From NCBI GenBank assembly GCA_963665325.3, contig CAXXWS020000003.1, positions 960,001 through 1,024,000 on the forward strand: 64,000 nucleotides of DNA. The letters run 5' to 3'. This DNA comes from Alphaproteobacteria bacterium. Lineage in GTDB: Bacteria > Pseudomonadota > Alphaproteobacteria > Bin95. The notes under the pieces are model-generated. The model was not told the origin of the DNA, did no database searches, and was given only the letters and a program-made list of their open reading frames with translations. Positions 11,951 through 63,944 of the stretch are shown piece by piece (position 1 is the first letter of the stretch; each line of letters opens with the position of its first letter). A program made the position numbers and the translations under genes.

Positions 11951-13252
<1,302 letters not shown>

Positions 13253-39728: not shown

Positions 39729-40050
39729 CCTGACGAACTCGATCTAATTCGCTTGTAGGCATTGTTGGGGCGCTTGCGTTTCCTCGTAGGAAAGGACAGT
39801 ATAGCAACAAGTTGGGGGAACGGCAAGGTCGAAAGGCAAGGGAACTATCTTGTATGAATGGCGAGCCTGTGTTCCACCAATTTGCATCGTGGGGCGCTTC
39901 GATGGCATATAATACGGTGAATGGAGGAAATGGCGGGGTTCCAGCAGTTGTCGATTGCTTGCTGTAGTAGTGCTCATATGAATGAACCATGGGTTTTGAC
40001 TATATGAAACTGTATATAACCGGACCGGGGCGCGGCTCACGGAGGGACCG

Positions 40051-41119: not shown

Positions 41120-41136
41120 AGGCCGCTGCTGCCGAT

Positions 41137-41382
41137 CTTGTGATAAGCTTATGTCACAGACTGTGATATTCTTGTGATATCCGAACGAGTTGGCCGCCGA
41201 AATCTTTTTGTGGCTTTCTTGTGTTAATTGTGATATTCTTATGATACAGCTTGGGCCGAATTCTCTTGTGATAAAATTATGCTTCTTGTTCTATTTTTAT
41301 GATGCTAACCATTGTGGGCCGCCAGCGCCCCAATGGGGCGGTGGCGTGCCGGAGGGGCAGCATATCATAAGAACATCATAAG
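41137..41382. repeat. AT-rich array of YTTRTGATR-like motifs (candidate protein-binding array, oriT-like)
   Basis: TGTGATA/TATGATR copies near 41139, 41162, 41173, 41229, 41240, 41267 and 41298; inverted copies at 41363 and 41374. Confidence 0.65.
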
Positions 41383-41456
41383 ATTTCGTCAGACCATTTC
41401 CGCTTCTCATCGCATTTCGGTGCGTGGCGATGAAGGCCCGGGGAGGCTGAGCCGGC

Positions 41457-42236: not shown

Positions 42237-42326
42237 ACCGGAGCGTCGGCTCGATTGCCCTCTCGCGGTTCGGCGGTCCGCCGACTTTCGGGCTCGCCGG
42301 AACGCTGCGGTCGTCTTTGCCCGGGT

Positions 42327-43664: not shown

Positions 43665-43679
43665 GCCGGGGACCGCAAG

Positions 43680-46160: not shown

Positions 46161-46248
46161 CCCCCCGAAACCGGCTCGGGCAGAATGCCATTCCGTCGCC
46201 GGTCTGTCTGCCTGGCCGGATGGCGGCATCCGGCCGTCGCGGGCCGGA

Positions 46249-50781: not shown

Positions 50782-50852
50782 GTGCTTCTACCGGAACCCG
50801 GCATACCCGATCGCCGGGGCCGGCGCTACCGCGAAGCAGGGGGAAGGGGTCC

Positions 50853-51467
50853 ATGACGGAACGCGACGAGGACAGGCGGATCGAGGAAGAACTCCAGCGC
50901 CGCGAGCGGCCCGCCGGGCAGCCGCAGGCCCCGGAACCCGCCAGGACGCCGGCAGCGCCGGGGCGGCAGGCGGGGACCGGGGGCAGCCCCGCGCCGCAAC
51001 CGCCCGATGTCGAGGCCCTGTTCCTCAGGCTGGAAGCCCAGCTCGACGAGATGGAGGGCCGTGTGGCCGCCGGTATCGATGCCGTGGCGGAACAGGTCGC
51101 CCCGGTGCCGGGCGCGGCGGCGGACCTCGCCGAATGGGTCCGGCGCGCGACGGCCAGGGGCGAGGCCGTCGACCGCCTGACGCCCCTGCTGGAGGAATCC
51201 GTCGACCGCGAGAACCGCCTCCACCGCCCCGCCCGAAGGCGCGCCAGGGCGGCGGGGTTCGTCCTGGCGCTCGCGCTCACGGCCGCAGTCGTCCTGTTCG
51301 TCCAGTGGCGCTTCGCCGTCATCGAGACCGCCGACCCCACGGACGGATGGCGCGGCCTTCTCTGGGAACGCTACGGAGCCGAACTGCGCGGCTGCGTCCT
51401 CCGCGCCGAACAGCAGGGCAAGGCCATGCTCTGCCAGGTCTTCGACCCCGAGCCCGCCCTACCGTAG
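50853..51467 (+). CDS. Relaxase-associated hypothetical membrane protein (reminiscent of DUF6118)
   Basis: Divergent from the relaxase; coiled coil, single TM helix, C-terminal ADP..W...C......C pattern. Confidence 0.5.
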   Translation: MTERDEDRRIEEELQRRERPAGQPQAPEPARTPAAPGRQAGTGGSPAPQPPDVEALFLRLEAQLDEMEGRVAAGIDAVAEQVAPVPGAAADLAEWVRRATARGEAVDRLTPLLEESVDRENRLHRPARRRARAAGFVLALALTAAVVLFVQWRFAVIETADPTDGWRGLLWERYGAELRGCVLRAEQQGKAMLCQVFDPEPALP

Positions 51468-52385
51468 CGCCCCACGATCCGGATGCGGCCGCGGAACCGG
51501 CGGCAACGGCGCGGTCCCGGCATAGCGGCCCTCCCGGTAAAGCCGGCCCTCCGCCGGCCCCTCCGGGTGACGAATGACCGTCACGCCGTCGAGCGCGCCG
51601 TCCTCGTACATCGCCTCCACCCGCCGCCCGTCCGGCCACGCGATCCGCCACAGCCCGTGCCGCCTGTCCTCGCGGTAGATGCCCGTCTCCGAATAGCCGT
51701 CCGGCCAGCGATGCGCCCATCGTCCGACCTGCTTTCCGTTGACCTGCCGGCCCTCGTCGACCCGCCCGCCGGCGTAGATATGCTTCCAGCGGCCGGTCGC
51801 CTTGCCGTGAACGAACGCGCCGTCGATCCGCGCGCCGCTGCGGTAATCGAAAACCCACACTCCATGCTTCATGCCCTTGCGGAACTCGCCGCGGCTTACA
51901 TCCCCGTCCGGCTTTTCGACCGTCCAGATCCCGACCGTCTCGCCCTGCTCGTAGCGCCCGCTCAACCGCTCGCCGTTCGGGATCGCGATGGTCCAGAAAC
52001 CCTGCTCCCCGCCAGGCCCGAACGACCCCTCCCGGCGTGTGCCGTCGACCTGCTCCAGCACCCACCCTCCCTGGCGCAGCCCGGCCGTGAACCGTCCCGT
52101 CTGCCGGTTGCCCTCCCGGTCCTCCAGAGCGCCCTCGCCCTCGGCCAGACCCTCCCGGCATGCCCCCGACCAGGTGAACGGCGCCTTGCCCCAGCGCGCG
52201 AACCGGCTCCGGAAATGGCAACCCGCGATGTTCTCCACCGGCGTCAGGCAGCCGGCCCCCGCAGGCGCTCCCGCATCTGTGCAGAGCGGCAAAGGCTCCG
52301 CGGCGCGCGCCATGCCGATCCAGACAAAAAGCGCCGAAACCGCCAGCAGCGCCGGAACGGCAGTTCGGAGGCTTCCATGGATCAT
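51459..52385 (-). CDS. Secreted MORN-like repeat protein
   Basis: Signal peptide, WSGACREGLAEGEG, about eight G.(F/Y)..G...G.W repeats. Confidence 0.75.
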   Translation of the reverse strand: MIHGSLRTAVPALLAVSALFVWIGMARAAEPLPLCTDAGAPAGAGCLTPVENIAGCHFRSRFARWGKAPFTWSGACREGLAEGEGALEDREGNRQTGRFTAGLRQGGWVLEQVDGTRREGSFGPGGEQGFWTIAIPNGERLSGRYEQGETVGIWTVEKPDGDVSRGEFRKGMKHGVWVFDYRSGARIDGAFVHGKATGRWKHIYAGGRVDEGRQVNGKQVGRWAHRWPDGYSETGIYREDRRHGLWRIAWPDGRRVEAMYEDGALDGVTVIRHPEGPAEGRLYREGRYAGTAPLPPVPRPHPDRGALR

Positions 52386-52837
52386 CGGGGCAAGGTTGCG
52401 TTCGGGCGCGGCGCTATGGTTCGGGACGACAGCGTAGCGGGGCCGGGCGACCCATGCGAGCGCCCGCTCGGCATGGCGCGCAGGCCGGAACCGGACAGGC
52501 ATGCGCCGTTTCCGGCCGTCGCCAGGCGGACAATGCACAAGAGAGGCAAACCCGGCGAGTTGCGTTGAGCGTCGGTTCGAACCAGCTCGCGCTCCCGGTT
52601 CACCACTCGGCCAGCTTTGAAGGGAGGCTCGACGGCTCGCTCTCAGTGAGTATCGAGCACAATCGGGCCGACTAGCGTGCTCGACGCTCGTTGAGATCGG
52701 ACGCGGCAAGTTAAGGGTATAAGCCCCCTAGATTAGGTGCTGACCGGCGTCGAAGCGGCGCGCAACGCAATACCATTTCCGCATGGAGGTGGGGCGCCCG
52801 CACCGTGCGCATCGTGCATACAGCTACAATATCTTGG

Positions 52838-53761
52838 TCATGATTCGTCCCCTCGGTCGACCCCATTGGCGAAATACGCGAGGGCCTTCTGGAGATGGTC
52901 AGCCATTGCGTTTCCGGCTACGGTAGGTACGCGTTCTGCCGGAGCGACCAAGCAGAGTCGCAGCTCGGACATCCGCTTTCCTTCCAAGGGAACTGCGATC
53001 AGGCTCCCGTCTGCCAATGCTTCGGAGAACTCCAGCTTTGTAGAAAATGCAATCCCGGCACCTTGCAGTAGAAGGCGCTTGACCATCGCCCGGGTGTTGG
53101 AGACCGCTGCTGGCTTGTGCACCCTCCTGAATGCTTCCATCTCATTACCGACAACCAGCTCCATCGTGTCGACAGGGTCCTGGTAGATCAGACGGTGGGT
53201 GCCGCACTCCTCAAGACTGACGGAGGCGCGCGACGCAAGTTCGTGGTCCGGCCTCATAACGGCGCACATCGGACAATCGATGCGCTTGAGTACGGTGATG
53301 CCACGGCGGCAGACCGGGGAGAACGTCAAGCCGAGATCCGCGGTGCCCTGGCAGACAGAGTGCATGGCTTCAATCGAATCGCAGGCGGACACGCGGACCT
53401 GAGCCTTCGGATGCAGAGCAACGAATTGCGCTATCGCTTCGGGCAGAAACTGCACAGTGGGGTTGTCCAAGGTCGCAATACTCACGCCGCCGCTCACGAT
53501 GCCGCGCAGGTTGTCAATATCGCCGCGCAGCCGCGCGAAGTCGTGCAGCGTATCCCGTGCGTGGCGCAGCACCAACTTGCCTGCCTCGGTCAGCCGCATG
53601 CCCTCCGGGTGCCGTTCGAACAACAGCACGCCGAACTGATCCTCCAGCTTCAGGATTTGGCGGTTCACAGCCGACGCCGAAATATGAACCCTTTCCGACG
53701 CACGGCGGATCGACCCGTCCTCGGCCACCGCTTCGAAATAACGCAACACTGCTGCATGCAT
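52838..53761 (-). CDS. LysR-family transcriptional regulator
   Basis: LRYF..VA..GSIRRA..HISASAVNRQILKLE..G..LFER. Confidence 0.95.
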   Translation of the reverse strand: MHAAVLRYFEAVAEDGSIRRASERVHISASAVNRQILKLEDQFGVLLFERHPEGMRLTEAGKLVLRHARDTLHDFARLRGDIDNLRGIVSGGVSIATLDNPTVQFLPEAIAQFVALHPKAQVRVSACDSIEAMHSVCQGTADLGLTFSPVCRRGITVLKRIDCPMCAVMRPDHELASRASVSLEECGTHRLIYQDPVDTMELVVGNEMEAFRRVHKPAAVSNTRAMVKRLLLQGAGIAFSTKLEFSEALADGSLIAVPLEGKRMSELRLCLVAPAERVPTVAGNAMADHLQKALAYFANGVDRGDES

Positions 53762-53767
53762 CCTGCG

Positions 53768-54397
53768 TCAGCCCCCGTTGTCTTTGCTTGCAATGCCCGC
53801 AACTCTTTCAACCAACCAGTGGTATTCTTGAGGGCTGCGATTCAGCAAATGTCTAGTGGCTGCAATGCGATCTGTCAATCCCTTCTCCTGAGACATTTTC
53901 ACCCGACCCTCAATATCGTCGACGACAATTGTCACGCGACGGATCAAAGTTGACAACTGCCGAACTCGATTTTCAGTCTTGTCAAAAGTCCATCCCGCTA
54001 TGGCAGGCTCCAGTTGCCGTGTGAGGTGTTCGATATCCTCGAGAATTTCTGACCCTGGATTCTCGATCCTTGCGTGTCCCGTTACATGAACAGAAATATA
54101 ATTCCAGGTTGGCAACTGCCGCGTCGCGTACACAGTAGGGGAGACGTATGCATTGGGGCCAGAAAACACGACATAAACCGGACTCCCCTCCAATAACTCA
54201 ATTTGAGGATTAGATTGGTCCATATGTCCGAGGAGTTTCACCACTCCCGAACATTCACTGCTTACAATAAGCGGAATATGGCTAGCGGCGAACTCCTTGC
54301 CACTCCAAGTGACAATGAGGCCCAAGGGAAAGGCTTGTATGATCGACACCAAACAGTCCAAGTCTTCTTCTCGGTACACGTCGTAATGATAAGCCAC
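53768..54397 (-). CDS. PaiB-family heme protein, piperazate synthase (KtzT/PzbB)-like
   Basis: SHIPL, GHMDQSNPQ, FSGPNAYVSPTVY, PTWNY, KMSQE. Confidence 0.75.
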   Translation of the reverse strand: MAYHYDVYREEDLDCLVSIIQAFPLGLIVTWSGKEFAASHIPLIVSSECSGVVKLLGHMDQSNPQIELLEGSPVYVVFSGPNAYVSPTVYATRQLPTWNYISVHVTGHARIENPGSEILEDIEHLTRQLEPAIAGWTFDKTENRVRQLSTLIRRVTIVVDDIEGRVKMSQEKGLTDRIAATRHLLNRSPQEYHWLVERVAGIASKDNGG

Positions 54398-54585
54398 CTA
54401 CTTCCACCCTCTTCGTTGCTACGTTTTCCGACTAATCCGGCTCTCATGCTCAGACCTCAATTCTCAACTAACCTCGCCATTCCTTGACCATAATGTTAGT
54501 CCTCCTTCGAATCCAATAGATCGCAGCGGCCCTCGTCTCCCAGCCGATCCATAATACAGTTCAGCCCGGGCTTGACACTTTTCTT

Positions 54586-55605
54586 CTAGTCAGTGCAATA
54601 TCCCATAACCTCCTTATACAACCAATCTGGAACACACACACCATTTTCCCGAGTATAGTTTCTTACCGCATAACGTCTATCGGAGGGCAAGCGCGTCCCC
54701 TCTTCTTCCAGGATCTTCTCAAACAGCGACTCCGCATGCTGGAGATTGACAGAACCATCGTACGAATCTCCGAAGTGGGCCGGGTCCATCGCAATAATCA
54801 ATTCACCTCCTTCCGACGGCCCGCCATCGCTGTCATCGTCCTGGGCCGACTCGAAGCCGAACTTGCCTCCGCTGAGCCCAACCGCCAATAGCTCCACCAT
54901 CATTGCAATAGCGGCGCCCTTGTAGCCGCCGAAGGGCAACTGCGCACCTTCGAGGGCGGCGCCCGGGTCCGTCGTCGGCCGGCCATTGGCGTCAATGGCC
55001 CAGCCCTCCGGAACTCGTGCCCCATCGCGTTCCCGAATTTGAATTTCACCGCGCGCCGCGACGCTGGAAGACTGGTCGAAGATCATTGGCGCCTTGTCAG
55101 GCCGCGGCCACCCGAACGCCATGGGATTTGTCCCAAAAACTTTGTTGGTACCTCCCGCTGCGGCGACGAAGGAGCGAGAGTTCACGAACGCAAATGCTAC
55201 CAACCCCTCGCAAACTAGCGTATCGATATCGTACCACAGCACTCCGGACTGATATGCATTCGTGATCGGCATTGCCGCGACCCCTTGAGATCGTGCCTTG
55301 GCAGCCAAGAGCGGCCGCCCGACTACCATCGCCGCAGCTGCAAAGCCACGATGGGCGTCCACCTGGACAACGCCGGGAGACTTGTCATGCAATGTCGGCA
55401 CGGCTTTCCCGTTTGCGCGCCCACTTTTGACACAGGCGCAGTAGCCTGGCATCCTGAAAAGACCGTGCGTCTTGCAGCCATCCTGCTCCGCCAAGGTCAT
55501 TACATCGGCGAGCACGATGGCGTTCTCCTCGGAGAGGCCGGATTTGGTCAGTCCGCGCATGGCGATATCGCGAACCTCGTCGAGCGTCAGACTTACGCTA
55601 GTCAC
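54586..55605 (-). CDS. Ldh_2-family oxidoreductase (DpkA-like cyclic imine reductase/sulfolactate dehydrogenase family)
   Basis: THGLFRMPGY, FGTNPMAF, LPFGGYKG, RLPSDRRY. Confidence 0.88.
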   Translation of the reverse strand: MTSVSLTLDEVRDIAMRGLTKSGLSEENAIVLADVMTLAEQDGCKTHGLFRMPGYCACVKSGRANGKAVPTLHDKSPGVVQVDAHRGFAAAAMVVGRPLLAAKARSQGVAAMPITNAYQSGVLWYDIDTLVCEGLVAFAFVNSRSFVAAAGGTNKVFGTNPMAFGWPRPDKAPMIFDQSSSVAARGEIQIRERDGARVPEGWAIDANGRPTTDPGAALEGAQLPFGGYKGAAIAMMVELLAVGLSGGKFGFESAQDDDSDGGPSEGGELIIAMDPAHFGDSYDGSVNLQHAESLFEKILEEEGTRLPSDRRYAVRNYTRENGVCVPDWLYKEVMGYCTD

Positions 55606-55644
55606 TGCATTCTCTCCAATGGGTAGCGGGGTGCGGAATCCTGC

Positions 55645-56529
55645 CTAGCGTGGGCTAGTCTCTAATCTGCGGTTGAACGACTTGCCCGGTTTCGGTTTTG
55701 CATTTGCTGTCGGCTCGTCAATCAGATTTTGAAACTGGGAAGGCTTATAGTGGGTTGCATAGATCATGACACCGACAAAAGTAAGCCCACCTACGAGATT
55801 GCCGATCAAGGTCGGAATCTCATTCCAGAGGAGGTAATCCACCCAAGTGTAACTGCCGCCGAGCATGATACCAGAAGGGAAAAGGTACATGTTTACAATG
55901 GAGTGTTCGAAACCAAGATAGAAGAAAATTAAAATTGGCATCCACATGCCGATTACTTTTCCGGAAACGGACGTAGACATCATCGCGGCGACAACACCTG
56001 TCGAAACCATCCAGTTGCACATGATAGCCCGAACAAACAGGGTCAACATTCCCGCGTAGTCGGCGTCGGCGTATCCAAGCGTACGCATTTCCCCGATCCT
56101 ACCAATTTTCTGACCTACTGCATTCGGGTCTTTGCTGAACCCCATCGTGAATACAACTGCCATCAAGGACGCAGTTGTGAGCGCTCCAGCGAGGTTTCCG
56201 AGGAAGACCAATGTCCAATTTCGTAGTAGCTTGGGAAAGGTTACACCGGGACGACGTGCAAAGAGAGCAAGTGGCACCAACGTAAACACGCCTGTCAACA
56301 AATCATAACCCAGAAGATAGATCATACAGAACCCAACCGGGAAGAGCAGAGATCCGAGTAAGAAACTACCAGTGTCAACCGCAATCGTTATGGCAAATGC
56401 CGCAGCTAGAGCTAAAATCGCACCGGCCATATATGCTCTGATAAGGGTATCCTTGGTCGACATAAATGCCTTGGATTCACCTGCCTCGATCATTCTTGTG
56501 GCAATTTCCCGGGGCGTGACATAGGACAT
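55645..56529 (-). CDS. Formate/nitrite transporter (FNT) family
   Basis: LFPVGF, DLLTG, GNLAG, CNWMV, GFEHSIVNM, GNLVGG. Confidence 0.93.
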   Translation of the reverse strand: MSYVTPREIATRMIEAGESKAFMSTKDTLIRAYMAGAILALAAAFAITIAVDTGSFLLGSLLFPVGFCMIYLLGYDLLTGVFTLVPLALFARRPGVTFPKLLRNWTLVFLGNLAGALTTASLMAVVFTMGFSKDPNAVGQKIGRIGEMRTLGYADADYAGMLTLFVRAIMCNWMVSTGVVAAMMSTSVSGKVIGMWMPILIFFYLGFEHSIVNMYLFPSGIMLGGSYTWVDYLLWNEIPTLIGNLVGGLTFVGVMIYATHYKPSQFQNLIDEPTANAKPKPGKSFNRRLETSPR

Positions 56530-56657
56530 GGGGAGTGCTTCTCCAATTAAAGCAAGGCGGCACTTGCTTCCTGTGTTCGTGGTAGCCGGCTGGCCATTGA
56601 AAGGCGGATGTTCTGAAGTTTGCGCCGGGAACCGGCATTGCTTCGCACCTCGGCAAG

Positions 56658-57860
56658 TTATCGGCGGGCTCGATAAGAAAGGTACGCTGCGCTCAATGCG
56701 AGGGCGGCCGCAGCAAGCTGGAAAGCGTGGTTGATTCCGTTTACTTGAGATACCAGGAGCGCAACTAGCACTGATGGCACCACCGGGCCGGTCAGTTGTC
56801 CGATCGCGAAAGCGGCAGTCATATAACCCAGTACCTCGGTCGCGCGTCCCCGTGCGCGCGACCGCACTTCCTGTAGCGCGACTGTGGTCGTGACCATGAA
56901 AGTGCCGCCCACGAATAGCGCGGTAATTGCGATCGAGGTTGGCGTCAGCCAGATGCTCGGCATGAGAACGCCGAGCGCCATGATGAGGTGGGTGACGGCC
57001 CACACGCGCAGGCGGTTCATCCGCTTGAGTACGCGTGCGGCTACGATAGTGGAAACTAGGGATGCCAACCCGAACAATGGCCAAGCGAGGCCGAATATTC
57101 GCGGCTCATCAACAATGTTGCGGGCAAGCGTGGGAAGGAATGTGGCTGGCAGGATATAGCCGAGCCCCATGACCCCATAGCAGACTACGAGACCTGCAGT
57201 GCTGCTACCGGGTCCAGTTGAAGCGCCTACCCCCCGGAGGGCGCCGGTGGAGGGAACCCGGGGACCTCTACTCAGCAATAGCGACGGCACGATGGCGACC
57301 GCCGCCAAGGCTCCCAGCCCGAGCCAAAGCCATTGCGTCGAGACGCCCGGGCCGGCGGCAACGACACAGTAGAGGCCTACTGTCGCAATGCCGAGGCCGG
57401 TGCCGCCATAGATCACTCCGGCGAGGTCCGAGCGTTGCGCCGACGCCAACCGATCCAACGCCCACGCGCTGGTCAGGACAAAAGCCCAAGCGCTAAAGAC
57501 ACCCGCCGCGAACCGCAAGACAAGCCATGCCGCCATATCCAGGCTGTCGGAGCCCCCCATGGCAGTTGTGACGGCAACGATAGCGGCCAGACTGCCGCGC
57601 AGCAGAATCTGCGGCTTGACGCGAACCCAGCTCACCGTTAGCGCGCCGAGCACGTAGCCGAAGTAATTGCTACCGGCCAACCATGCGCCGGCGTTCAGGT
57701 CAAGCAGGTCATCCCGGATCATGAGGGGCAACAGGGGCGTGAACGCGAATCGGCCAATACCCATCGAGACTGCGACCTCTACCATTGCAAGAAGGCAGAC
57801 GGCAGCAGCAGTACGCGTTCCCAAGCGCGTCTGTCGGATAAAATCCAGGTTTATGCGCAT
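56658..57860 (-). CDS. MFS transporter (YbfB/YjiJ-like)
   Basis: MGIGRFAFTPLLP, NYFGY, GLGYILPATFLP, GGTFM. Confidence 0.9.
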   Translation of the reverse strand: MRINLDFIRQTRLGTRTAAAVCLLAMVEVAVSMGIGRFAFTPLLPLMIRDDLLDLNAGAWLAGSNYFGYVLGALTVSWVRVKPQILLRGSLAAIVAVTTAMGGSDSLDMAAWLVLRFAAGVFSAWAFVLTSAWALDRLASAQRSDLAGVIYGGTGLGIATVGLYCVVAAGPGVSTQWLWLGLGALAAVAIVPSLLLSRGPRVPSTGALRGVGASTGPGSSTAGLVVCYGVMGLGYILPATFLPTLARNIVDEPRIFGLAWPLFGLASLVSTIVAARVLKRMNRLRVWAVTHLIMALGVLMPSIWLTPTSIAITALFVGGTFMVTTTVALQEVRSRARGRATEVLGYMTAAFAIGQLTGPVVPSVLVALLVSQVNGINHAFQLAAAALALSAAYLSYRARR

Positions 57861-57917
57861 GTTTACTCGGCCTCGGACCAACGTTTCACACACCACCGAT
57901 TCGGCTCTTCACGAAAT

Positions 57918-59636
57918 TCAGGCCACCCCGGCTCCTTGGTCCTTCAGGATCGTCGCGAACTTGGTGCGCAATTCGCGCTTGAGCACTTTCCCTGTGACCC
58001 CGACCGGGAAATTCTGCGGCTCCAACGCCACTTGGACGGCTGCCAGAGGCTCGAGGCCGGCCGTCGAGAGTTGCTCGTTAAAGTACGCGAGCAACCGATG
58101 TTCCGATGGAACCTCTGGGCCTTTCCGGGGACGGATGATGGCAATCGGCTTTTGTCCGAAGCCATTATGGCTCGGGACGCCGACGACGGCGCAATCGTGA
58201 ACGATGTCCCCGCAGTCGGCCAACAGCACTTCTTCGATCAGCAAGCTGTAGACCGCCTCGAACGCGCCATCTATGACATCGACTGTGCGATCCAGGTGAT
58301 AGAAGCGGCCGTCTTCGTCCCGGCGGGCCACATCCCCCGTCAACCAGTATCCGCCAAGCTCGAACCTCCCGGTCAGCTCCCGGTCGTTCCAATATCCCGG
58401 CGTAAGGCTCGGTGTCTTGAGAGCTAGCAGGCCCGGTGCTCCGACAGGCAGCTCCGCTCCGGTTTCGTCAACGACCGTGGCGTGCTCGACCACGCCGATA
58501 GGCACTCCGATACAGCGATCGTTTCGTTCGGTCTCCATCGTGAACAGCTGCCCGAACAGGGACAGCCCCAGTTCCGACGAGCCGAAGCCGTCGATGAACT
58601 GGGAACCCGGCTGCGCCGCATCGCCCGCGTCGCCCTCTGTAAGCAGCGCCGGCTTTATCAGGCCGGCCGGCCGCTGGCCCATCGTGACGAGCCGCCGGAT
58701 ATGCCCATAGTGCGCGCTGTCCCCCATGTTGATCCAGGTATGGACCGAGGCGCAGGCCTCGGCGGGCAACGGATCGGCCGACAGTTCGACAAAAGTGCGT
58801 GGGAATGACAGCACGATTGTCGGCTCGAATACCATCATGACGGGCTCGACGACCACGCGCCGCCAATCCGACATGACGACTGTCGGCAAGCCCATGAGAA
58901 CCGCCGTCATGAAGTAGCTCAGCCCGCCCGCGTGTGTATGCGGCACGAGTGACATCAAGCGGTCGTACGGCTCTGCGGGCAAACGGATTAACCGGGGCTC
59001 CTTCCCAATCCAGAACTGCTTGTGGCCGGCCATGGTGGGCTTCGGCACTCCCGTCGTGCCGGACGAGTGGACGAGTGCAACGATGTCGTCTTCCTCGTGC
59101 AACACGGGAAATGGCGATGGCAGCGCTCCCTGTTCCTGGTGCGCGTTTAACTCCGACAGTGCCGAAATGAATCGCGGCCGGTAACGCTGTCTGCTGCGAA
59201 ATGCGGCCTTGAAGCCCGTCGGGTCGTCACACACCAGCCCAACCGCGCCCACATTCTCCAGATAGCTGCACGCCGCGGCGAGAGGCATGGCATTGTTGAT
59301 CAGGCCACAGATGGCGCCCAAGGCGGAGACCGCCAGGCACTGGAGCATCGGGTCGACGCCTTCGCTGACATACACCCCGACAACGTCGCCCTTCCGGACG
59401 CCATTGGCGTGGTACCATCGGGCATACCGGTCGCGCACGGCCACGAGGTCATCGAGGCTATACCCCGTCAGGTCGACACGGCCATGAGAGTCGAATCGGT
59501 GCCTGAAAATGAACGGCACGCTACGGTTCGGATTGAGCCGGACCGCCCAATCCAGAAAGTTCCCCGTGCCGAGAGCGGGTTCCTCCACCAACTGGCGTCG
59601 AACTTCGATCGGCGCAATCGAGCTATGCTGTGCCAT
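57918..59636 (-). CDS. Stand-alone class I adenylate-forming (ANL) ligase
   Basis: HSSGTTGVPK, GFGSSE, TGD, LDR, PVGVTGKVLKR. Confidence 0.9.
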   Translation of the reverse strand: MAQHSSIAPIEVRRQLVEEPALGTGNFLDWAVRLNPNRSVPFIFRHRFDSHGRVDLTGYSLDDLVAVRDRYARWYHANGVRKGDVVGVYVSEGVDPMLQCLAVSALGAICGLINNAMPLAAACSYLENVGAVGLVCDDPTGFKAAFRSRQRYRPRFISALSELNAHQEQGALPSPFPVLHEEDDIVALVHSSGTTGVPKPTMAGHKQFWIGKEPRLIRLPAEPYDRLMSLVPHTHAGGLSYFMTAVLMGLPTVVMSDWRRVVVEPVMMVFEPTIVLSFPRTFVELSADPLPAEACASVHTWINMGDSAHYGHIRRLVTMGQRPAGLIKPALLTEGDAGDAAQPGSQFIDGFGSSELGLSLFGQLFTMETERNDRCIGVPIGVVEHATVVDETGAELPVGAPGLLALKTPSLTPGYWNDRELTGRFELGGYWLTGDVARRDEDGRFYHLDRTVDVIDGAFEAVYSLLIEEVLLADCGDIVHDCAVVGVPSHNGFGQKPIAIIRPRKGPEVPSEHRLLAYFNEQLSTAGLEPLAAVQVALEPQNFPVGVTGKVLKRELRTKFATILKDQGAGVA

Positions 59637-59670
59637 AGCGCTCTCTCCTCTTTGGTCGGGATTGTCCGCC

Positions 59671-60948
59671 TCAGGCGGCCGGACTTAACTGTCTTCTCGA
59701 AAGCTCGCCGGTGACAGCTTCAGCAATTCGGGAAAGGCCATCCGACAGCGCCGCCTCCGTGATCGTCAGGGGCGGCATAACCTTCAGGACCTCGTCCCGC
59801 GCGCCGCATAACTCCACGATCACCCCGGCGCGATATGCGCGTTCGGCCGCCCCTTTCGCCATGCTCGGGTCGTTGGGCCACGCCAGCCCCTGCAGCATGC
59901 CCTTGCCACGGACCTCCGCATCACCGGCCTGGACCGCGACCTCCGATAACCGCGACCGGATCAGGGCGCCCTTTTGGTGCACGCTGGCTTCGAAGTCGGG
60001 ATTCCGCCAAAAACGTAACGCTTCAGCGCCGGCGACAAACGCCAGGTTGTTTCCGCGAAACGTACCATTGTGCTGCCCCGGTTCCCACACGTCCACTTCC
60101 GGCCGGATCAACAGCATCGCCATGGGCAAGCCAAAACCGCTGATCGACTTCGCCAAGCATACAATGTCGGGCTCGAGGTCAGCGCGTTCGAAGCTGAAGA
60201 ACGGTCCGGTTCGGCCGCAACCGGTCTGGATCTCGTCGACGATCAGCAACGCCCCTTGCTTTCTCGCCAACGCCTGAAGGCGCTGAAGCCAGTCAACGCT
60301 CGCCTCGTTGAGCCCTCCTTCCGCCTGCAGTGTTTCGACTATGATTGCCGCAGGCGGGTCGATCCCACTGCCCGGGTCGTCCAACAGCGTCTCGACGTAC
60401 TCCAGCGTATCCACATTGGAACCCAAATAGCCATCGAAAGGCACCCGGTCCACTGCCGCGTACGGCACTCCCCCACCGCTTCGCTTCCGTCGCGCACCGG
60501 AAACGGCAAGCGCACCCAACGTCATCCCGTGAAAACTGTTCGTAAACGCCAGAATGTTCGTTCTTGATGTAACGCGTCGAGCCAGCTTCAAAGCTGCTTC
60601 GACAGCGTTCGTACCCGTGGGGCCGGTGAACTGCATCTTGTAGTCAAGTCCACGGGGCGAAAGAACTCCATCTTGCAGTTCCTGCATGAACTCTCGTTTT
60701 GCCTCCGTGTGCAGGTCCAGCGAATGCGTTATACCGTCCGTAATCATGTAGCCGACGATTTTGCTACGTATCTGCCGATTGTTATGTCCATAATTCAAAG
60801 CGCCTGCGCCCGACAGAAAATCCAAATAGGAAGTTCCGTCGACATCGATTAGAGTATGTCCGGTCGCCTTTTGAAAGAGCGCCGGAAAATCCCGACAGTA
60901 AGACCGAACCACCGATTCAAGTTGGTCGAAGATCACCGTGCCGTCCAT
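59671..60948 (-). CDS. ectB: Diaminobutyrate--2-oxoglutarate transaminase (EctB-like), without ectA/ectC
   Basis: ESVVRSYCR, DFLSGAGALNYGHN, GPTGTNAVEAALK, QAEGG, DEIQTGCGRTG, AKS, HNGTFRGNN. Confidence 0.9.
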   Translation of the reverse strand: MDGTVIFDQLESVVRSYCRDFPALFQKATGHTLIDVDGTSYLDFLSGAGALNYGHNNRQIRSKIVGYMITDGITHSLDLHTEAKREFMQELQDGVLSPRGLDYKMQFTGPTGTNAVEAALKLARRVTSRTNILAFTNSFHGMTLGALAVSGARRKRSGGGVPYAAVDRVPFDGYLGSNVDTLEYVETLLDDPGSGIDPPAAIIVETLQAEGGLNEASVDWLQRLQALARKQGALLIVDEIQTGCGRTGPFFSFERADLEPDIVCLAKSISGFGLPMAMLLIRPEVDVWEPGQHNGTFRGNNLAFVAGAEALRFWRNPDFEASVHQKGALIRSRLSEVAVQAGDAEVRGKGMLQGLAWPNDPSMAKGAAERAYRAGVIVELCGARDEVLKVMPPLTITEAALSDGLSRIAEAVTGELSRRQLSPAA

Positions 60949-61550
60949 TTGGGCCTCAGCCTCCCTTTTTTTCCCAGGTATGCTACCCAACTTTTCTGTT
61001 TGCGTAGCTGAACCATCATTTACCACTCATCCGGTCTTCGTCGAGCCACATCTTCGCGCTTCCAATCATGACCCGATGAACTTCATTCCCACAGTCTCTA
61101 GTGCGCCGTAGGCGTCTTCATCTCTACTTTCCAAGTGTGCTTATGGTCCGAAGTTGGCGTGAACGCCATAACCTTAATTGGCTCGCCCCCCTCCCTGCCG
61201 TCGACTTAATTGCGACAACCTCCGCAGAGGCTCGATGATACTCGCCCGAACAGGCGGTTCCGAGCCCATCCATCCGCGAGCCTCATCGCTGCCCTCCTCG
61301 ACCCAAGTTCGACTGGCCGTCGTGGGGAACCCGCCCAGGGGTCCGAACTATCTTGTCACGATGAACTCCCATCCCGTTGCGAAAAATGTAACGCTGTGAA
61401 GAGCGCTTTGTATTGCATTAGACCGGCCCAATGTGCTTCGATGGGCTTGGCGGGCTTCACGCAGGGGAAGCTCTGCTGTGCTGCAACATCAATTGGTGAA
61501 TGCCCGCCGGACTGCTAGTCGGCCGGCGTTGAAAACAGTGGGAGACGAAA

Positions 61551-62888
61551 TTGGAAGCTTCCTCAACACGGCCTATCTTCGATGTTGTGGGCATTGGTTT
61601 TGGACCGGCGAACATCGCGCTTGCTATTGCGCTCCAGGAGCGACGCGACCCGCTGTCGGTGTTGTTTTTGGAAAAATCCAGCGAACCCGGTTGGCAAGCC
61701 GCGATGTTGCTGGACGGTTCAGACATTCAAAACAGCGCTCTGCGCGACCTTGTCACCCCGCGCAATCCGAGAAGCCGATACTCGTTCACAAATTTCTTGT
61801 TTGAGCAGGGGCGACTATTCGAATATCTCAACCTGGGCCTCGAGTTCCCGCTGAGAAAGGAATACGCTCAGTATGTTTCATGGGTGGCTCGCCAGTTTGA
61901 CGGACAGGTTTGCTATCGAGAGGAAGTGCGGCATCTTAGTATAGCAGGCACAGGCGGATCCGCGTGCTTTTCCATAACCACAGCAGGAGGCAGGACCTTC
62001 TTAGCCCGAAGCCTAGTTGCCGCGCCCGGCCGTACGCCGCTTATTCCGGAGGTGTTTAGAGGAACGGAAGGCGAGCGAGTATTCCACTTCACGCAGTATG
62101 CTCCGATGTTGAAGAAGTTAAAGCTGGGGACGGGCGAAGGTAAGCGTGCCGGTGTCGTAGGAGGAAGTCAAAGTGCTGTGGAGATCATTCTCGACCTGGC
62201 GTCTCGGTATCCGGAGATCGAGATCGTTAATGTACAGCGAGGGTTCGGGTTTTCTCTGAAAGATACAAGCCCTTTTAGCGACCATGTGTATTTCCCGGAG
62301 CATGTTGACTATTATTTTAATGCATCACAGAAAAGCAAGGCAAGCATTGATGCCCAGTTGAGGCGCACAAATTACTCGTCTGCAGACGGAGATGTGATTC
62401 GCCAACTGTATCTCGCCATTTATGAACAGAAATTGGACGGAAGGGAGAGGATACAGGTATTGAACAATACAAAAGTTAGTGGGGTGAAGAAAGGAGAAGA
62501 CGGTCTTGTGATTCAGGTGGAGGAAATTCACCAGGGGCAACTCGCTTCGGTTGAGCTTGATTTTGCGGTACTCGCAACAGGATTCCGTAATCTTGGACCG
62601 GCGGAGAATCAAGAGTTAGTTCCGCCTTTGCTCCTGCCGGTTGAAGGCTACCTGAGCAAGAGCCCACAGGGAGTACTTGAAATATCTCGGGATTACAGGT
62701 TGCTCGCCGCGAATCCAGAAGACCCGTTGCCACCGCTGTACCTGAATGGATTGTGTGAAACAACACACGGAATGGGAGATGCAGGGTCCTTTAGTTTGTT
62801 GTCGCTTCGAAGCGAACTCATTGCCCGGTCCGTTAGTGATGCTCTGACTGATTGTTCGCTGGTAGGCTCCTCTCCTTTAGGCTCCTGA
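61551..62888 (+). CDS. Flavin-dependent amine N-hydroxylase (SidA/IucD/PvdA/KtzI family)
   Basis: GIGFGPANIALA FAD motif, DLVTPRNPRSRYSF, GGSQSAVE NADPH motif, TNYS, LATGF; TTG start. Confidence 0.93.
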   Translation: MEASSTRPIFDVVGIGFGPANIALAIALQERRDPLSVLFLEKSSEPGWQAAMLLDGSDIQNSALRDLVTPRNPRSRYSFTNFLFEQGRLFEYLNLGLEFPLRKEYAQYVSWVARQFDGQVCYREEVRHLSIAGTGGSACFSITTAGGRTFLARSLVAAPGRTPLIPEVFRGTEGERVFHFTQYAPMLKKLKLGTGEGKRAGVVGGSQSAVEIILDLASRYPEIEIVNVQRGFGFSLKDTSPFSDHVYFPEHVDYYFNASQKSKASIDAQLRRTNYSSADGDVIRQLYLAIYEQKLDGRERIQVLNNTKVSGVKKGEDGLVIQVEEIHQGQLASVELDFAVLATGFRNLGPAENQELVPPLLLPVEGYLSKSPQGVLEISRDYRLLAANPEDPLPPLYLNGLCETTHGMGDAGSFSLLSLRSELIARSVSDALTDCSLVGSSPLGS

Positions 62889-63541
62889 ATAACTGTCCTG
62901 GTTTTAAGGCACGAGAGCGGTAGCAGCTCGGTAGGAGGCGTAGGGGGGAGTCATCGGATCGTGTCGTCAGGGGCCGGCGATGGAACCAACAGAGCTAAGG
63001 TCGGAAGGCGGACGGGTGGCTCTGAGGGGCCCTGACAATGCGGGCGGGCTAGGTGGCCAGTTCCTGCTGGTGAGACCGCATTGGCGAGGTGGCGGTTATG
63101 ATCGGAGTGTTGCAATGAGGGAGAAGGAGTGGGCGCGATGTCAGGACAAGGGCAGGTTCTACTGGCGGCAAGCATTTGCTGTGCTCTCTCTGGCGCGTAC
63201 GTAGTCATCGCTAAAGTGGATACGAATGCAGGCTTCGTTGATAAAATGGGCGCATTAGCGGGACCTTATATCGCTGGCGGACTAGTCGGTTGGGTAACAC
63301 CCTTGGTACGGACCGAATCTGTGGACAATTCCCTACCATAGGTGACGTTGTCGTACACTTTTCCCGCCGAAGACGACGGGGCAGTGCAACAGAAGTTAGA
63401 CGGCTGTATGAATGAGGTAAATAGCCTAGGGGATTCGGTCTACGCGGTGTAGTCGAGCCGGTGGTGCCCAGGGGGCGATAGGCGGCACCGTTGTCGACAT
63501 GGAGGCGCTGTGGCAGGCCGCGCCGGATCGGCGCGTTCCTG

Positions 63542-63944
63542 AACGCCTATCGCATCGACCTCACCGGCGAGTCACAGCGAAAGCGCAACAAGCTGACCTC
63601 GCTCGAAGGCGGCAACAAGAAATGAGGGAGCCCCGGCCTGGCGGCCGGGGTCCAGCGGTGCCTGCGGCGCCGGACCCGGCCGCAACACCGTGCAAGCGCC
63701 CCGGCATGCCCTATGAAGGGGCTTGCCGGGGCGTAGGATACGCCTTTGCATGACAAACAGGGCTCGCTTACGCTCGCAACCGGCTGGCCTCCGGCCAGCC
63801 CCCTGAAACCACCAACGGAGACCCACAGACCCACACACCAAGACACGGGAGAGACCCAAAACCGGCGCCGCACCGGCCGTCAAATGGCCAGGAACCGCAG
63901 TCAAATAAAATAGGAATCCGCTGTCAAGTCCGCAGGAATGCGCA
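63542..63944 (+). mobile_element. IS21-family remnant (istB 3' end and right terminus)
   Basis: 63542-63625 reads NAYRIDLTGESQRKR..., the IstB C-terminal pattern; three GTCAA..AGGAA repeats at 63879-63944 ending GGAATGCGCA. Confidence 0.75.

What the first reader, a model, noticed from the sequence alone, without database searches (positions are those of the whole stretch)
59671..62888. Orphan ectB opposite the N-hydroxylase suggests a DAB-derived five-membered N-N ring
Seen: a complete EctB-like transaminase heads the operon, with no ectA, ectC or DAB decarboxylase in the cluster. Established: EctB makes L-2,4-diaminobutyrate, one carbon shorter than ornithine. Inference: N4-hydroxylation and then cyclisation would give pyrazolidine-3-carboxylate (an aza-proline) instead of piperazate, which would be a dedicated route to a rare scaffold. 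The hydroxylase C-terminus (HGMGDAGSFSLL) also differs from what I recall of the usual ornithine hydroxylases.
Basis: inference. Interest (0 to 1): 0.75.

Follow-up and report, generated by a model that had tools for sequence, protein, structure and literature searches.

The report
Mobile diaminobutyrate-based nitrogen-nitrogen bond gene cluster
A small gene cluster carried on a mobile DNA island pairs an enzyme that makes the unusual amino acid diaminobutyrate with three enzymes of families known to build nitrogen-nitrogen bonds, so it probably makes an undescribed nitrogen-rich small molecule.

Summary
A complete EctB-type diaminobutyrate (DAB) transaminase (59671-61026, -) faces a SidA/PvdA-family N-hydroxylase (61551-62888, +). 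I found no ectA or ectC, and no DAB decarboxylase above its model's cut-off, in the cluster or the genome.

The hydroxylase belongs to a distinct clade. Two ornithine-contact residues are changed and one residue is inserted at the C-terminus. A DAB transaminase lies within about 10 kb in 18 of 19 clade loci examined, against 0 of 20 PvdA-type controls.

The operon also holds a formate/nitrite channel, a DpkA-like cyclic imino-acid reductase and a PaiB/piperazate-synthase-family heme protein.

The trio of transaminase, hydroxylase and PaiB-like protein recurs in three other proteobacterial loci with different tailoring genes.

Best reading (about 0.45): DAB is N4-hydroxylated, cyclised to a five-membered hydrazine, then N-nitrosated with nitrite. 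The heme protein keeps the catalytic His/Thr/Lys but lacks the residues that mark true piperazate synthases, so the ring closure is inferred, not shown.

I score it as a new variant of known N-N logic and a good lead for experiment.

The parts
52838..53761 (-). LysR-family transcriptional regulator, last gene of the minus-strand run, 6 bp after the PaiB-like gene
   Evidence: PF00126 and PF03466. No NCBIfam model reached its cut-off.
53768..54397 (-). PaiB/piperazate-synthase-family (PF04299) putative heme enzyme, 209 aa. Proposed to act on N4-hydroxy-DAB.
   Evidence: PF04299 at 125 bits. Solved relatives are PaiB, NohD and piperazate synthase. His58, Thr97 and Lys167 are conserved. It has Asp60, Leu95 and Arg144 at the sites that separate piperazate synthases from NohD (PMC12576811).
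54586..55605 (-). DpkA-like Ldh_2-family NAD(P)H oxidoreductase (cyclic alpha-imino-acid reductase type)
   Evidence: PF02615 at 301 bits. Best solved match is delta1-piperideine-2-carboxylate reductase 1wtj/2cwf/2cwh at 237.5 bits; the next family scores 134.5.
55645..56529 (-). Formate/nitrite transporter (FNT) family channel, about 294 aa. The start at 56529 is inferred; the listed ORF runs up to 57084 and overlaps the MFS gene.
   Evidence: PF01226 at 217 bits over residues 193-442 of the long ORF. TIGR00790 at 141.8 bits, below its cut-off of 232. Start position.
56658..57896 (-). MFS_4 (YbfB-like) transporter, probable exporter
   Evidence: PF06779 at 223 bits.
57918..59636 (-). ANL-superfamily ligase of the type Ib diazotase / Tri17 N-nitrosylase family (ATP + nitrite)
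   Evidence: Best NCBIfam match is the AvaA6 diazotase model at 311 bits (cut-off 975, not met); the next family scores 152. Solved matches are 9xb8 at 291 bits, 9bq0 (Tri17) at 248 and 8ztz at 245, then a gap to 76 bits. His235, Phe278 and Lys550 align with the published nitrite-site triad.
59671..61026 (-). EctB-type L-2,4-diaminobutyrate:2-oxoglutarate transaminase, first gene of the operon
   Evidence: TIGR02407 at 594 bits, above its cut-off of 552. 6rl5 at 451 bits.
61027..61550 (.). Divergent intergenic region between ectB and the N-hydroxylase gene (presumed shared control region)
   Evidence: Coordinates. The promoter scan found nothing above chance.
61551..62888 (+). SidA/PvdA-family flavin N-hydroxylase of a distinct clade, proposed L-DAB N4-hydroxylase
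   Evidence: PF13434 at 287 bits. Clade signature: Arg65, Asp244 and the GSFS insertion. DAB transaminase linkage in 18 of 19 clade loci against 0 of 20 controls.

Best explanation
This is an eight-gene cargo cluster of about 10 kb, with low G+C, on an integrative or conjugative island. I read it as a pathway to a DAB-derived compound with nitrogen-nitrogen bonds. The proposed steps are as follows.

1. EctB makes L-2,4-diaminobutyrate from aspartate semialdehyde. The family assignment is shown; the direction is inferred.
2. The divergent flavin monooxygenase hydroxylates N4 of DAB. This is inferred from clade-specific contact residues and gene linkage.
3. The PaiB-family heme enzyme uses the hydroxylamine to close an N-N bond onto the alpha-amine. 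This gives pyrazolidine-3-carboxylate, the five-membered homologue of piperazate. This step rests on context alone and is the weakest link.
4. The DpkA-like oxidoreductase interconverts that ring with its cyclic hydrazone, 2-pyrazoline-3-carboxylate, which is the aza-analogue of its family's substrate pyrroline-2-carboxylate. This is inferred.
5. The Tri17-type ligase activates nitrite with ATP and N-nitrosates the ring hydrazine or hydrazone. That adds a third nitrogen. It is inferred from family membership and from Tri17's published hydrazone specificity.
6. The FNT channel would bring in nitrite, in place of the aspartate-nitrosuccinate genes that usually accompany such ligases in actinomycetes. 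The MFS protein would export the product and LysR would regulate.
For: Family assignments:
- EctB passes its equivalog cut-off.
- The ligase matches solved Tri17 and diazotases at 245-291 bits, with the next family at 76 bits. 9BQ0 is Tri17 (PMC12207350). The three nitrite-site residues are kept.
- The Ldh_2 protein matches DpkA at 237.5 bits against 134.5 for the next family.

Hydroxylase substrate:
- 18 of 18 clade sequences have Arg and Asp/Glu where SidA's ornithine-binding Lys107 and Asn293 lie, plus a one-residue insertion before the Ser469 equivalent. 20 of 20 PvdA-type controls keep Lys and Asn.
- A DAB transaminase homologue lies within about 10 kb in the window, L012, L030, L031 and L075, and in 13 of 14 motif-bearing loci of an actinomycete genus sample. 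It lies near 0 of 20 controls.
- All three actinomycete loci that I annotated carry a MetRS-like hydrazine-synthetase gene; two of the three gave a cupin hit and two a strong DAO hit. This is the Apy9/10/11 layout, whose hydroxylase Apy11 is reported as DABA-specific (reviews).

Trio:
- Transaminase, hydroxylase and PaiB-like genes are adjacent or in one cluster in the window, in an alphaproteobacterial MAG (L012), on Mycetohabitans plasmids (L030, genes overlapping) and in G948 (L075). Downstream genes differ.
- L075 and L030 have no other candidate N-N enzyme.
- Simple dehydration of N4-hydroxy-DAB would only regenerate EctB's own substrate.

Heme protein:
- The PaiB clade keeps the axial His and the Thr/Lys dyad. 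Asp at the position two residues after the His is invariant, isosteric with the Asn that flips the heme propionate in piperazate synthases (PMC12576811).
- Piperazate synthases make five-membered hydrazines in vitro.

Ligase step:
- L012 shares all five enzymes.
- Tri17 N-nitrosates a hydrazone with ATP-activated nitrite.
Against: - The PaiB-like protein carries none of the three single-residue marks of piperazate synthases. It has Asp not Asn, Leu not Ala and Arg not Tyr. Its Arg and its bulky aliphatic residue resemble the dehydratase NohD.
- A profile of the clade scores higher on PaiB (155 bits) than on a piperazate-synthase-like chain (129) or PipS (108).
- The ligase is below the AvaA6 equivalog cut-off (311 against 975). 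Its nucleophile is unknown.
- Its closest relatives (56-63% identity) sit in actinomycete loci without the hydroxylase, transaminase or PaiB-like genes.
- The FNT channel cannot be assigned to nitrite rather than formate.
- I saw no natural product with this ring in the literature I searched.
- No expression or chemical data exist.
- I could not obtain Apy11's sequence to place it in the clade.
Confidence: 0.45

Rival explanations
1. There is no heme-made ring. The only N-N bond comes from the Tri17-type ligase, which nitrosates N4-hydroxy-DAB to a diazeniumdiolate amino acid. That product would be a homologue of alanosine; 'homoalanosine' from Streptomyces is recalled from memory, not from a call. 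Alternatively the ligase acts on DAB itself. The PaiB-like protein would be a NohD-type hydroxylamine dehydratase, or would have a protective or salvage role.
For: The PaiB clade has Arg and a bulky aliphatic residue at two sites where NohD has Arg and Val. The ligase family is firmly assigned. A hydroxylamine is a plausible nucleophile for AMP-nitrite.
Against: The trio recurs without any ligase in L030 and L075, so the heme protein has a ligase-independent substrate. Dehydrating N4-hydroxy-DAB would return aspartate semialdehyde, which is a futile cycle with EctB. Asp at the position two residues after the axial His is invariant in 20 of 20 clade members, where NohD and PaiB have Ala. This reading leaves the DpkA-like reductase without a role. 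Tri17 was reported as hydrazone-specific.
Confidence: 0.25
2. This is an ordinary piperazate pathway. The hydroxylase takes L-ornithine, the heme enzyme makes six-membered piperazate, and EctB supplies DAB for an unrelated step.
For: The best solved relatives of the hydroxylase are annotated as lysine or ornithine enzymes. Hydroxylase plus PF04299 pairs are the classical piperazate signature.
Against: Two of SidA's four ornithine-contact residues are changed throughout the clade, and there is an insertion beside a third. DAB transaminase linkage is 18 of 19 against 0 of 20. The heme protein lacks the piperazate-synthase marks. Ornithine needs no dedicated supply gene.
Confidence: 0.07
3. This is not N-N chemistry. 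The cluster would make a hydroxamate siderophore built on N-hydroxy-DAB or on 1,3-diaminopropane, or it would be a DAB or ectoine catabolic or nitrogen-scavenging operon.
For: DAB transaminase plus N-hydroxylase also occurs in rhizobactin-type siderophore clusters (recalled). EctB homologues serve ectoine catabolism (recalled).
Against: Among the cluster's genes scanned there is no IucA/IucC synthetase, acyltransferase, NRPS, decarboxylase or receptor gene, and no ectoine hydrolase or deacetylase. The ligase is of the nitrite-activating family. The hydroxylase keeps a basic residue (Arg) where SidA's carboxylate-binding Lys107 lies, which fits an amino-acid rather than a diamine substrate.
Confidence: 0.07
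4. The cluster is silent or decaying cargo of the island and has no product in this host.
For: It is foreign in composition: G+C is 0.54-0.63 against about 0.70, and GC3 is 0.52-0.77 against roughly 0.70-0.94 for most other called genes. No close homologue of the ligase or of the PaiB-like protein was found in sampled relatives. There are no expression data.
Against: All eight frames are intact and full length against their families. Catalytic residues are kept. The same five enzymes are kept at 31-70% identity in L012 (lowest for the DpkA-like gene, which is fragmented there) despite rearrangement.
Confidence: 0.05

Closest known systems
Piperazate pathway KtzI/KtzT (PzbA/PzbB; PipS)
   Same: A SidA/PvdA-family N-hydroxylase is paired with a PF04299 heme protein. 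The axial His and the Thr/Lys dyad are conserved. The logic is hydroxylate a side-chain amine, then close N-N onto the alpha-amine. In vitro these synthases accept N4-hydroxy-DAB and N-hydroxy-1,3-diamines and give five-membered rings.
   Different: The substrate is one carbon shorter and has its own supply gene (ectB). The hydroxylase belongs to another clade (Arg and Asp/Glu replace Lys and Asn, with a GSFS insertion). The heme protein has Asp, Leu and Arg instead of Asn, Ala and Tyr. The host is a proteobacterium, no NRPS is present, and the cluster sits on a mobile island.
Triacsin N-hydroxytriazene pathway (Tri28 then Tri17, with Tri16/Tri21 for nitrite)
   Same: Two different enzymes make two consecutive N-N bonds, first a hydrazine and then an ATP- and nitrite-dependent N-nitrosation. 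The window's ligase matches solved Tri17 at 248 bits.
   Different: The first N-N bond would come from a heme PaiB-family enzyme, not a cupin/MetRS hydrazine synthetase. No aspartate-nitrosuccinate genes are seen in the cluster; an FNT channel is present instead. There is no polyketide part. The nucleophile would be a ring nitrogen, so a true N-hydroxytriazene tautomer could not form.
Actinopyridazinone genes Apy9/Apy10/Apy11
   Same: N4-hydroxy-L-DAB serves as the hydroxylamine donor for N-N bond formation, with a DABA-specific hydroxylase (reviews). Actinomycete members of the window's hydroxylase clade sit in Apy-like layouts with a DAB transaminase.
   Different: Apy9 couples N4-hydroxy-DAB to alanine intermolecularly. 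The window has no cupin or MetRS-like gene and uses a PaiB-family protein.
NohD, heme-dependent N-hydroxylamine dehydratase (Actinomadura luzonensis)
   Same: Same fold and catalytic residues. Arg at the AS1 site and a bulky aliphatic residue at the AS2 site.
   Different: NohD has Ala two residues after the axial His and an MHVF N-terminus, and its cluster lacks any N-hydroxylase. The window's clade has an invariant Asp and an MYHY-type N-terminus, and is always found beside a hydroxylase and a DAB transaminase.

Membership tests
EctB, DAB-2-oxoglutarate transaminase (TIGR02407) | Score above the curated equivalog cut-off over the full length | tested here: met
   594.2 bits against a cut-off of 552.2, model positions 2-410 of 412. 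6rl5 at 451.5 bits.
Ectoine biosynthesis operon (ectABC) | ectA and ectC present with ectB | tested here: not met
   None in the cluster. No TIGR02406 or PF06339 match in the genome; the PF06339 control rang in no genome.
SidA/PvdA/IucD flavin N-hydroxylases (PF13434) | Full-length PF13434 domain with the FAD and NADPH glycine motifs | tested here: met
   286.8 bits, positions 2-338 of 339. GIGFGPAN and GGSQSA are visible in the translation.
Ornithine N5-hydroxylases of the PvdA/SidA/KtzI type | SidA ornithine contacts Lys107, Asn293, Asn323 and Ser469 (PMC7347517, passage) and the HGLSD-LLS C-terminus | tested here: not met
   The window has Arg65, Asp244, Asn274 and Ser415, with one inserted residue before the Ser. 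20 of 20 controls keep Lys and Asn.
DAB N4-hydroxylase (Apy11-like) | Activity on L-DAB, and a dedicated DAB supply gene nearby | tested here: inconclusive
   Linkage to a DAB transaminase in 18 of 19 clade loci against 0 of 20 controls.
Piperazate synthase (KtzT/PipS) | PF04299 fold with an axial His and a catalytic Thr/Lys pair | tested here: met
   His58, Thr97 and Lys167 are invariant in the clade and align with the solved chains.
Piperazate synthase (KtzT/PipS) | Asn two residues after the axial His (HP2), Ala two before the Thr (AS2), and Tyr at AS1 (PMC12576811) | tested here: not met
   Asp60, Leu95 and Arg144. Asp is isosteric with Asn, which is my own argument, not a test.
Piperazate synthase (KtzT/PipS) | N-N cyclisation of an N-hydroxy diamino acid | not testable with these tools
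   Needs an enzyme assay.
NohD hydroxylamine dehydratase | Ala at HP2, Val at AS2, Arg at AS1, MHVF N-terminus, no hydroxylase in the cluster | tested here: not met
   Only the Arg at AS1 matches. The other sites read Asp, Leu and MAYHY, and a hydroxylase is present.
Type Ib ATP-dependent diazotase / Tri17 N-nitrosylase | Closest relatives are characterised nitrite-activating ANL enzymes, clearly apart from CoA ligases | tested here: met
   9xb8 at 290.9 bits, 9bq0 (Tri17) at 247.8 and 8ztz at 244.5, with the next family at 75.8. NF058622 at 311 bits against 152 for the next model.
Type Ib ATP-dependent diazotase / Tri17 N-nitrosylase | Nitrite-site His, Phe and Lys (H236, F279, K527 of Mco01_40450; H224, F267, K533 of CmaA6) | tested here: met
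   His235, Phe278 and Lys550 align with chain positions 252, 295 and 543 of 9xb8 (residues). The 16-residue numbering offset is my inference. The His and the Lys are also common in other ANL enzymes.
AvaA6 3-aminoavenalumate diazotase (NF058622 equivalog) | Score above the equivalog cut-off | tested here: not met
   311.4 bits against a cut-off of 975. It is a relative, not an orthologue.
Nitrite supply by the aspartate-nitrosuccinate pathway (CreE/CreD) | creE and creD homologues near the ligase | tested here: inconclusive
   None among the eight cluster genes. Only one full-length PF13434 gene in the genome. No dedicated CreD search was run.
DpkA, pyrroline-/piperideine-2-carboxylate reductase (Ldh_2) | Closest to characterised DpkA rather than to malate, sulfolactate or ureidoglycolate dehydrogenases | tested here: met
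   1wtj/2cwf/2cwh at 237.5 bits against 134.5 for sulfolactate dehydrogenase. No NCBIfam model reached its cut-off.

The most novel reading that the evidence does not exclude
Two different N-N bond-forming enzymes act in series. A PaiB-family heme cyclase and a Tri17-type nitrite ligase would build a chain of three nitrogens on a DAB-derived five-membered ring, giving an N-nitroso-pyrazolidine or N-nitroso-pyrazoline carboxylate, with nitrite taken up through a dedicated channel. That would be the first natural five-membered homologue of piperazate. It would also be a second natural route to three linked nitrogens, after the triacsins.
Probability: 0.22. Interest if true: 0.85.

Novelty: new variant of a known kind. 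Interest (0 to 1): 0.68.

Why it matters
N-N bonds are rare in natural products and useful in drugs, and the few enzyme families that make them are sought as biocatalysts. The finding gives three testable leads.

1. A sequence signature (Arg, Asp/Glu and a GSFS insertion) marks a widespread clade of probable DAB N4-hydroxylases. Automated annotation currently names them lysine or ornithine enzymes.
2. There is an undescribed clade of PaiB-family heme proteins with an invariant Asp beside the heme ligand, always found next to such a hydroxylase and a DAB transaminase. If it cyclises N4-hydroxy-DAB, nature has a dedicated route to pyrazolidine-3-carboxylate, which so far is known only as an in-vitro side product of piperazate synthases.
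3. A Tri17-type nitrite ligase occurs in Proteobacteria next to an FNT channel instead of nitrite-making genes. This hints that environmental nitrite can feed secondary metabolism.

The whole set is small (about 10 kb, no NRPS or PKS) and mobile. Heterologous expression with 15N-nitrite is therefore straightforward.

Tried and rejected
- Ectoine pathway: rejected. There is no ectA or ectC.
- DAB decarboxylase route to 1,3-diaminopropane: rejected for the cluster. The decarboxylase at 29725-31170 scores 104 bits against a cut-off of 900 and lies outside the island.
- Hydroxylase-PaiB fusion among two long hydroxylase homologues (P0011, P0016): rejected. The extra length is an N-terminal extension, probably a mis-called start.
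- Promoter and terminator scan of 52500-63600: counts at chance level (6 against 4.8 expected; 8 against 9.7). No use.
- Island ends: there is no tRNA in the 18 kb beyond the window. Only chance-length repeats of 15 bp or less link the two flanks. The ends are not resolved.
- More copies of the full cluster: the genome-collection scan with the ligase gave 11 loci, of which only L012 shares the other genes. The metagenome scan gave one close ligase homologue without the other genes.
- Close homologues in samples: no close ligase homologue in 400 other genomes of the class; no close hydroxylase in 400 of the phylum; the PaiB clade in 1 of 301 genomes of one genus.
- Context of the actinomycete ligase relatives: it gave no clue to the nucleophile. 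Three of those genomes lack the clade hydroxylase.
- Earlier notes of this scan: nothing for this place or this sequence.
- Literature: I saw no natural pyrazolidine or pyrazoline carboxylate pathway and no description of the Mycetohabitans or Ralstonia loci. A November 2026 review has no occurrence of either word. The library holds open-access papers only.
- Not attempted: structure prediction and complex prediction. The tools return no coordinates, so the pocket could not be inspected.

Full report
**What is at the coordinates**

The finding spans two divergent genes. ORF 59671-61026 (-), 451 aa, is a class-III aminotransferase. It passes NCBI's equivalog cut-off for EctB (TIGR02407, 594.2 bits against 552.2; NF006733, 617.4 against 438). 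Its best solved relatives are DAB-2-oxoglutarate transaminases (6rl5, 451.5 bits). ORF 61551-62888 (+), 445 aa, is a full-length SidA/PvdA-family flavin N-hydroxylase (PF13434, 286.8 bits). The two are separated by 524 bp.

The genome is 100% complete by marker genes. It gave no match to ectA or ectC. The ectC control rang in none of the 14 control genomes, so that negative is weak. No DAB decarboxylase reaches its cut-off: the best match is 163 bits against 900. No second gene passes the EctB cut-off.

**The operon around it**

On the minus strand, with gaps of 6 to 188 bp, ectB is followed by six genes:

| Coordinates | Gene product |
|---|---|
| 57918-59636 | AMP-binding ligase |
| 56658-57896 | MFS_4 transporter |
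| 55645 to about 56529 | formate/nitrite-family (FNT) channel |
| 54586-55605 | Ldh_2 oxidoreductase |
| 53768-54397 | PF04299 (PaiB/KtzT family) protein |
| 52838-53761 | LysR regulator |

The cluster has G+C of 0.54-0.63 in a window that is otherwise about 0.70. Its GC3 is 0.52-0.77, while most other called genes of the window lie higher (about 0.70-0.94). It lies between a TrwC relaxase (46249-50781; a NikA-like gene and a McrBC gene lie further upstream) and two phage-type integrases 6-8 kb beyond the window's end. It is therefore cargo of an integrative or conjugative island. I could not find the island's ends.

**The 'ligase' is a nitrite-activating N-N enzyme**

Its best NCBIfam match is the AvaA6 diazotase model (311 bits; below the equivalog cut-off of 975). 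The next family scores 152.

Among solved structures, four sequences score 245-291 bits and everything else 76 or less. One of the four, 9BQ0, is Tri17. [quoted passage not shown]

Published mutagenesis names a His, a Phe and a Lys at the nitrite site (PMC13674236, passage). In the printed alignment to 9xb8, the window's His235, Phe278 and Lys550 fall on the matching residues if the chain numbering is offset by 16. That offset is my inference. The His and the Lys are also common in other ANL enzymes.

More distant homologues (33-37% identity) on Sinorhizobium and Klebsiella plasmids sit beside 3-dehydroquinate synthase II genes of the kind used to make 3-amino-4-hydroxybenzoate (the Klebsiella locus also has the partner aldolase-type synthase). 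That is the classical diazotase context.

An FNT channel in the same operon fits nitrite uptake. Its family scores do not separate nitrite from formate.

**The oxidoreductase is DpkA-like**

Its best solved match is delta1-piperideine-2-carboxylate/pyrroline-2-carboxylate reductase (1wtj, 2cwf, 2cwh; 237.5 bits). The next family, sulfolactate dehydrogenase, scores 134.5. This points to a cyclic alpha-imino acid somewhere in the pathway.

**The hydroxylase belongs to a separate clade tied to DAB**

HMMER aligns it with one inserted residue relative to PvdA, KtzI, MbtG and SidA. Only 5cqf, a Pseudomonas syringae protein labelled lysine monooxygenase, shares the insertion.

SidA binds ornithine through Lys107, Asn293, Asn323 and Ser469 (PMC7347517, passage). 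I compared two groups:

| Group | n | Lys107 position | Asn293 position | Insertion before Ser469 equivalent |
|---|---|---|---|---|
| Clade sequences | 18 | Arg in 18 | Asp or Glu in 18 | GSFS in 18 |
| PvdA-type controls | 20 | Lys in 20 | Asn in 20 | none seen (motif readable in 18) |

The 18 clade sequences were the window, L012, one Ralstonia, one Mycetohabitans, and 14 that I picked for taxonomic spread from the 120 best hits. The 20 controls came from a 400-genome sample of the phylum: 20 of the 21 hits were fetched, because only 20 regions fit in one call.

Gene linkage agrees with the residue signature.

- A DAB transaminase homologue lies within about 10 kb of the hydroxylase in the window, L012, L030 (Mycetohabitans plasmid), L031 (Ralstonia megaplasmid) and L075.
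- It lies near 13 of 15 loci fetched from an actinomycete genus sample. In that sample 16 of 301 genomes had a hit, and one hit on a 2.3-kb contig was left out.
- Of the two loci without it, one has a different C-terminal motif. That makes 13 of 14 motif-bearing loci.
- It lies near 0 of 20 controls.

All three actinomycete loci that I annotated (3 of the 15) carry a MetRS-like hydrazine-synthetase gene. Two of them gave a cupin hit and two a strong DAO hit. This is the layout of Apy9/Apy10/Apy11, whose hydroxylase Apy11 is reported to be specific for L-DABA (PMC11705231 and PMC13755311, passages). I could not obtain Apy11's sequence to confirm that it carries the signature. I put DAB as the substrate at about 0.85.

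**The PaiB-family protein**

The transaminase, the hydroxylase and a PaiB-like gene occur together in four places:

- the window;
- L012, an alphaproteobacterial MAG with frameshifted assembly, 51-70% identity, order ectB-hydroxylase-PaiB;
- L030, Mycetohabitans rhizoxinica pBRH01, where the three genes overlap; eight more Mycetohabitans plasmids gave the same match and annotation;
- L075, genome G948, the only hit among 301 genomes of one genus.

Four further pairs of hydroxylase and PaiB homologues in the protein searches list the same longest-contig length. This suggests, but does not show, that each pair lies on one contig.

Downstream genes differ between these loci.

- L012 has a DAO-type oxidase, the ligase and a DpkA-like gene.
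- L075 has the same DAO (72% identity), an HpaB-like gene and a Rieske oxygenase.
- L030 has the HpaB-like gene and the Rieske oxygenase (62-64% identity to L075), a ZapE-like gene and a tautomerase.

The trio therefore behaves as a portable module feeding different tailoring steps.

L030 and L075 hold no other candidate N-N enzyme. A plain NohD-type dehydration of N4-hydroxy-DAB would return aspartate semialdehyde, which is EctB's own substrate. These two arguments from context are the main support for ring closure.

**Does the heme protein pass as a piperazate synthase?**

It passes only in part. The axial His, the Thr and the Lys are invariant (His58, Thr97, Lys167).

The study that turned NohD into a piperazate synthase names the separating sites (PMC12576811; I read parts 1-3 of 5):

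| Site | Piperazate synthase (PipS) | NohD (and most of the family) | Window's clade |
|---|---|---|---|
| HP2, two residues after the axial His | Asn68 | Ala | Asp, invariant |
| AS2, two residues before the Thr | Ala105 | Val | Leu, invariant |
| AS1 | Tyr155 | Arg144 | Arg, at least 90% |

Asp and Leu occur together in 20 of the 22 aligned sequences. The two that lack them have Ala and Val together. A paralogue elsewhere in the same genome also has Ala and Val.

A profile of the clade scores 155 bits on PaiB, 129 on a chain with the piperazate-synthase residues (9qlk), 128 on NohD and 108 on PipS.

Asp is the same size as Asn and would also push the heme propionate out of its flat position. 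That is my argument, not a test. The clade is best described as a third lineage of unknown activity.

**Most likely mechanism**

1. EctB makes DAB.
2. The hydroxylase makes N4-hydroxy-DAB.
3. The heme enzyme closes N4 onto the alpha-amine and gives pyrazolidine-3-carboxylate.
4. The DpkA-like enzyme interconverts this with 2-pyrazoline-3-carboxylate, the aza-analogue of pyrroline-2-carboxylate.
5. The Tri17-type ligase N-nitrosates the ring hydrazine or hydrazone with ATP-activated nitrite brought in by the FNT channel.
6. The MFS protein exports the product.

Family assignments and linkage are shown. Substrates, order and product are inferred. I give the whole chain 0.45. The main rival (0.25) has the ligase acting on N4-hydroxy-DAB to give a diazeniumdiolate, with the heme protein in another role.

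**Novelty**

Piperazate synthases make five-membered hydrazines in vitro (PMC12150314 and PMC11705231, passages). In the open-access library I found no natural pathway to such a ring and no description of these loci (searches; review check). The clusters are rare in the samples searched. I rate it a new variant of known N-N logic. Its value lies in two unannotated enzyme clades and in a compact cluster that can be expressed and tested.

Noticed in passing
window 40000-52800, and L002 6111-8408 (window-equivalent 68111-70408): The cluster is cargo of a mobile island. The island holds a NikA-like gene (41457-42236), McrBC (42327-43664), a 1510-aa TrwC relaxase-helicase (46249-50781) and two tandem phage-type integrases just beyond the window's end. 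Neither a tRNA nor flanking direct repeats were found.
   Followed up: partly
L031 (Ralstonia solanacearum megaplasmid CP076122.1), 1862-17283: A hydroxylase of the same clade (54% identity) sits next to ectB, a small cupin protein, FAD oxidoreductases and adenylation-domain proteins. 96 Ralstonia records carry the hydroxylase. This may be an undescribed DAB-based hydrazine pathway in a plant pathogen.
   Followed up: partly
L030 (Mycetohabitans rhizoxinica pBRH01) 2532-10076, and L075 (G948) 2725-17801: There is a second cluster type. The transaminase, hydroxylase and PaiB-like trio is joined to an HpaB-like flavin monooxygenase, a Rieske oxygenase and a tautomerase, and has no nitrite ligase. 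The product is unknown.
   Followed up: partly
L075 8233-10245 (-): The PaiB-like domain and an MFS transporter lie in one 670-aa open frame with no stop between them. This is either a real fusion or an assembly artefact.
   Followed up: no
L003, L006, L008, L011, L025 (actinomycete loci): The closest relatives of the nitrite ligase (56-63% identity) lie beside a flavin amine oxidase in the three of five loci where the scanned ORFs showed one (L003, L006, L011). Other neighbours in some of the loci are a stand-alone adenylation enzyme with a carrier protein, a 460-490-aa protein with no Pfam family, and ATP-grasp or PKS genes. The scanned ORFs within 10 kb showed no fumarase/aspartase-type lyase (as CreD is) and no N-hydroxylase. 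This looks like an uncharacterised group of Tri17-like enzymes.
   Followed up: partly
L028 (Sinorhizobium medicae plasmid) and L029 (Klebsiella michiganensis plasmid): Diazotase-family ligases (33-37% identity to the window's) sit next to 3-dehydroquinate synthase II genes of the 3-amino-4-hydroxybenzoate type on proteobacterial plasmids. Diazo-type chemistry may therefore be more common outside actinomycetes than the literature I read suggests.
   Followed up: no
L100 and L102 (actinomycete loci): Two PF13434 hydroxylase genes lie in the same Apy-like hydrazine cluster, together with a DAB transaminase. L100 also has a PLP decarboxylase 6 kb away.
   Followed up: no
window 51459-52709 (-) and 50853-51467 (+): Two ORFs of 416 aa and 204 aa lie between the relaxase and the cluster. 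Neither has a Pfam or NCBIfam match.
   Followed up: no
PDB 5cqf: This solved Pseudomonas syringae protein is deposited as L-lysine 6-monooxygenase. It shares the clade's C-terminal insertion and the Arg at the carboxylate-binding position, but keeps Asn at the second site. Its annotated substrate may deserve a second look.
   Followed up: no
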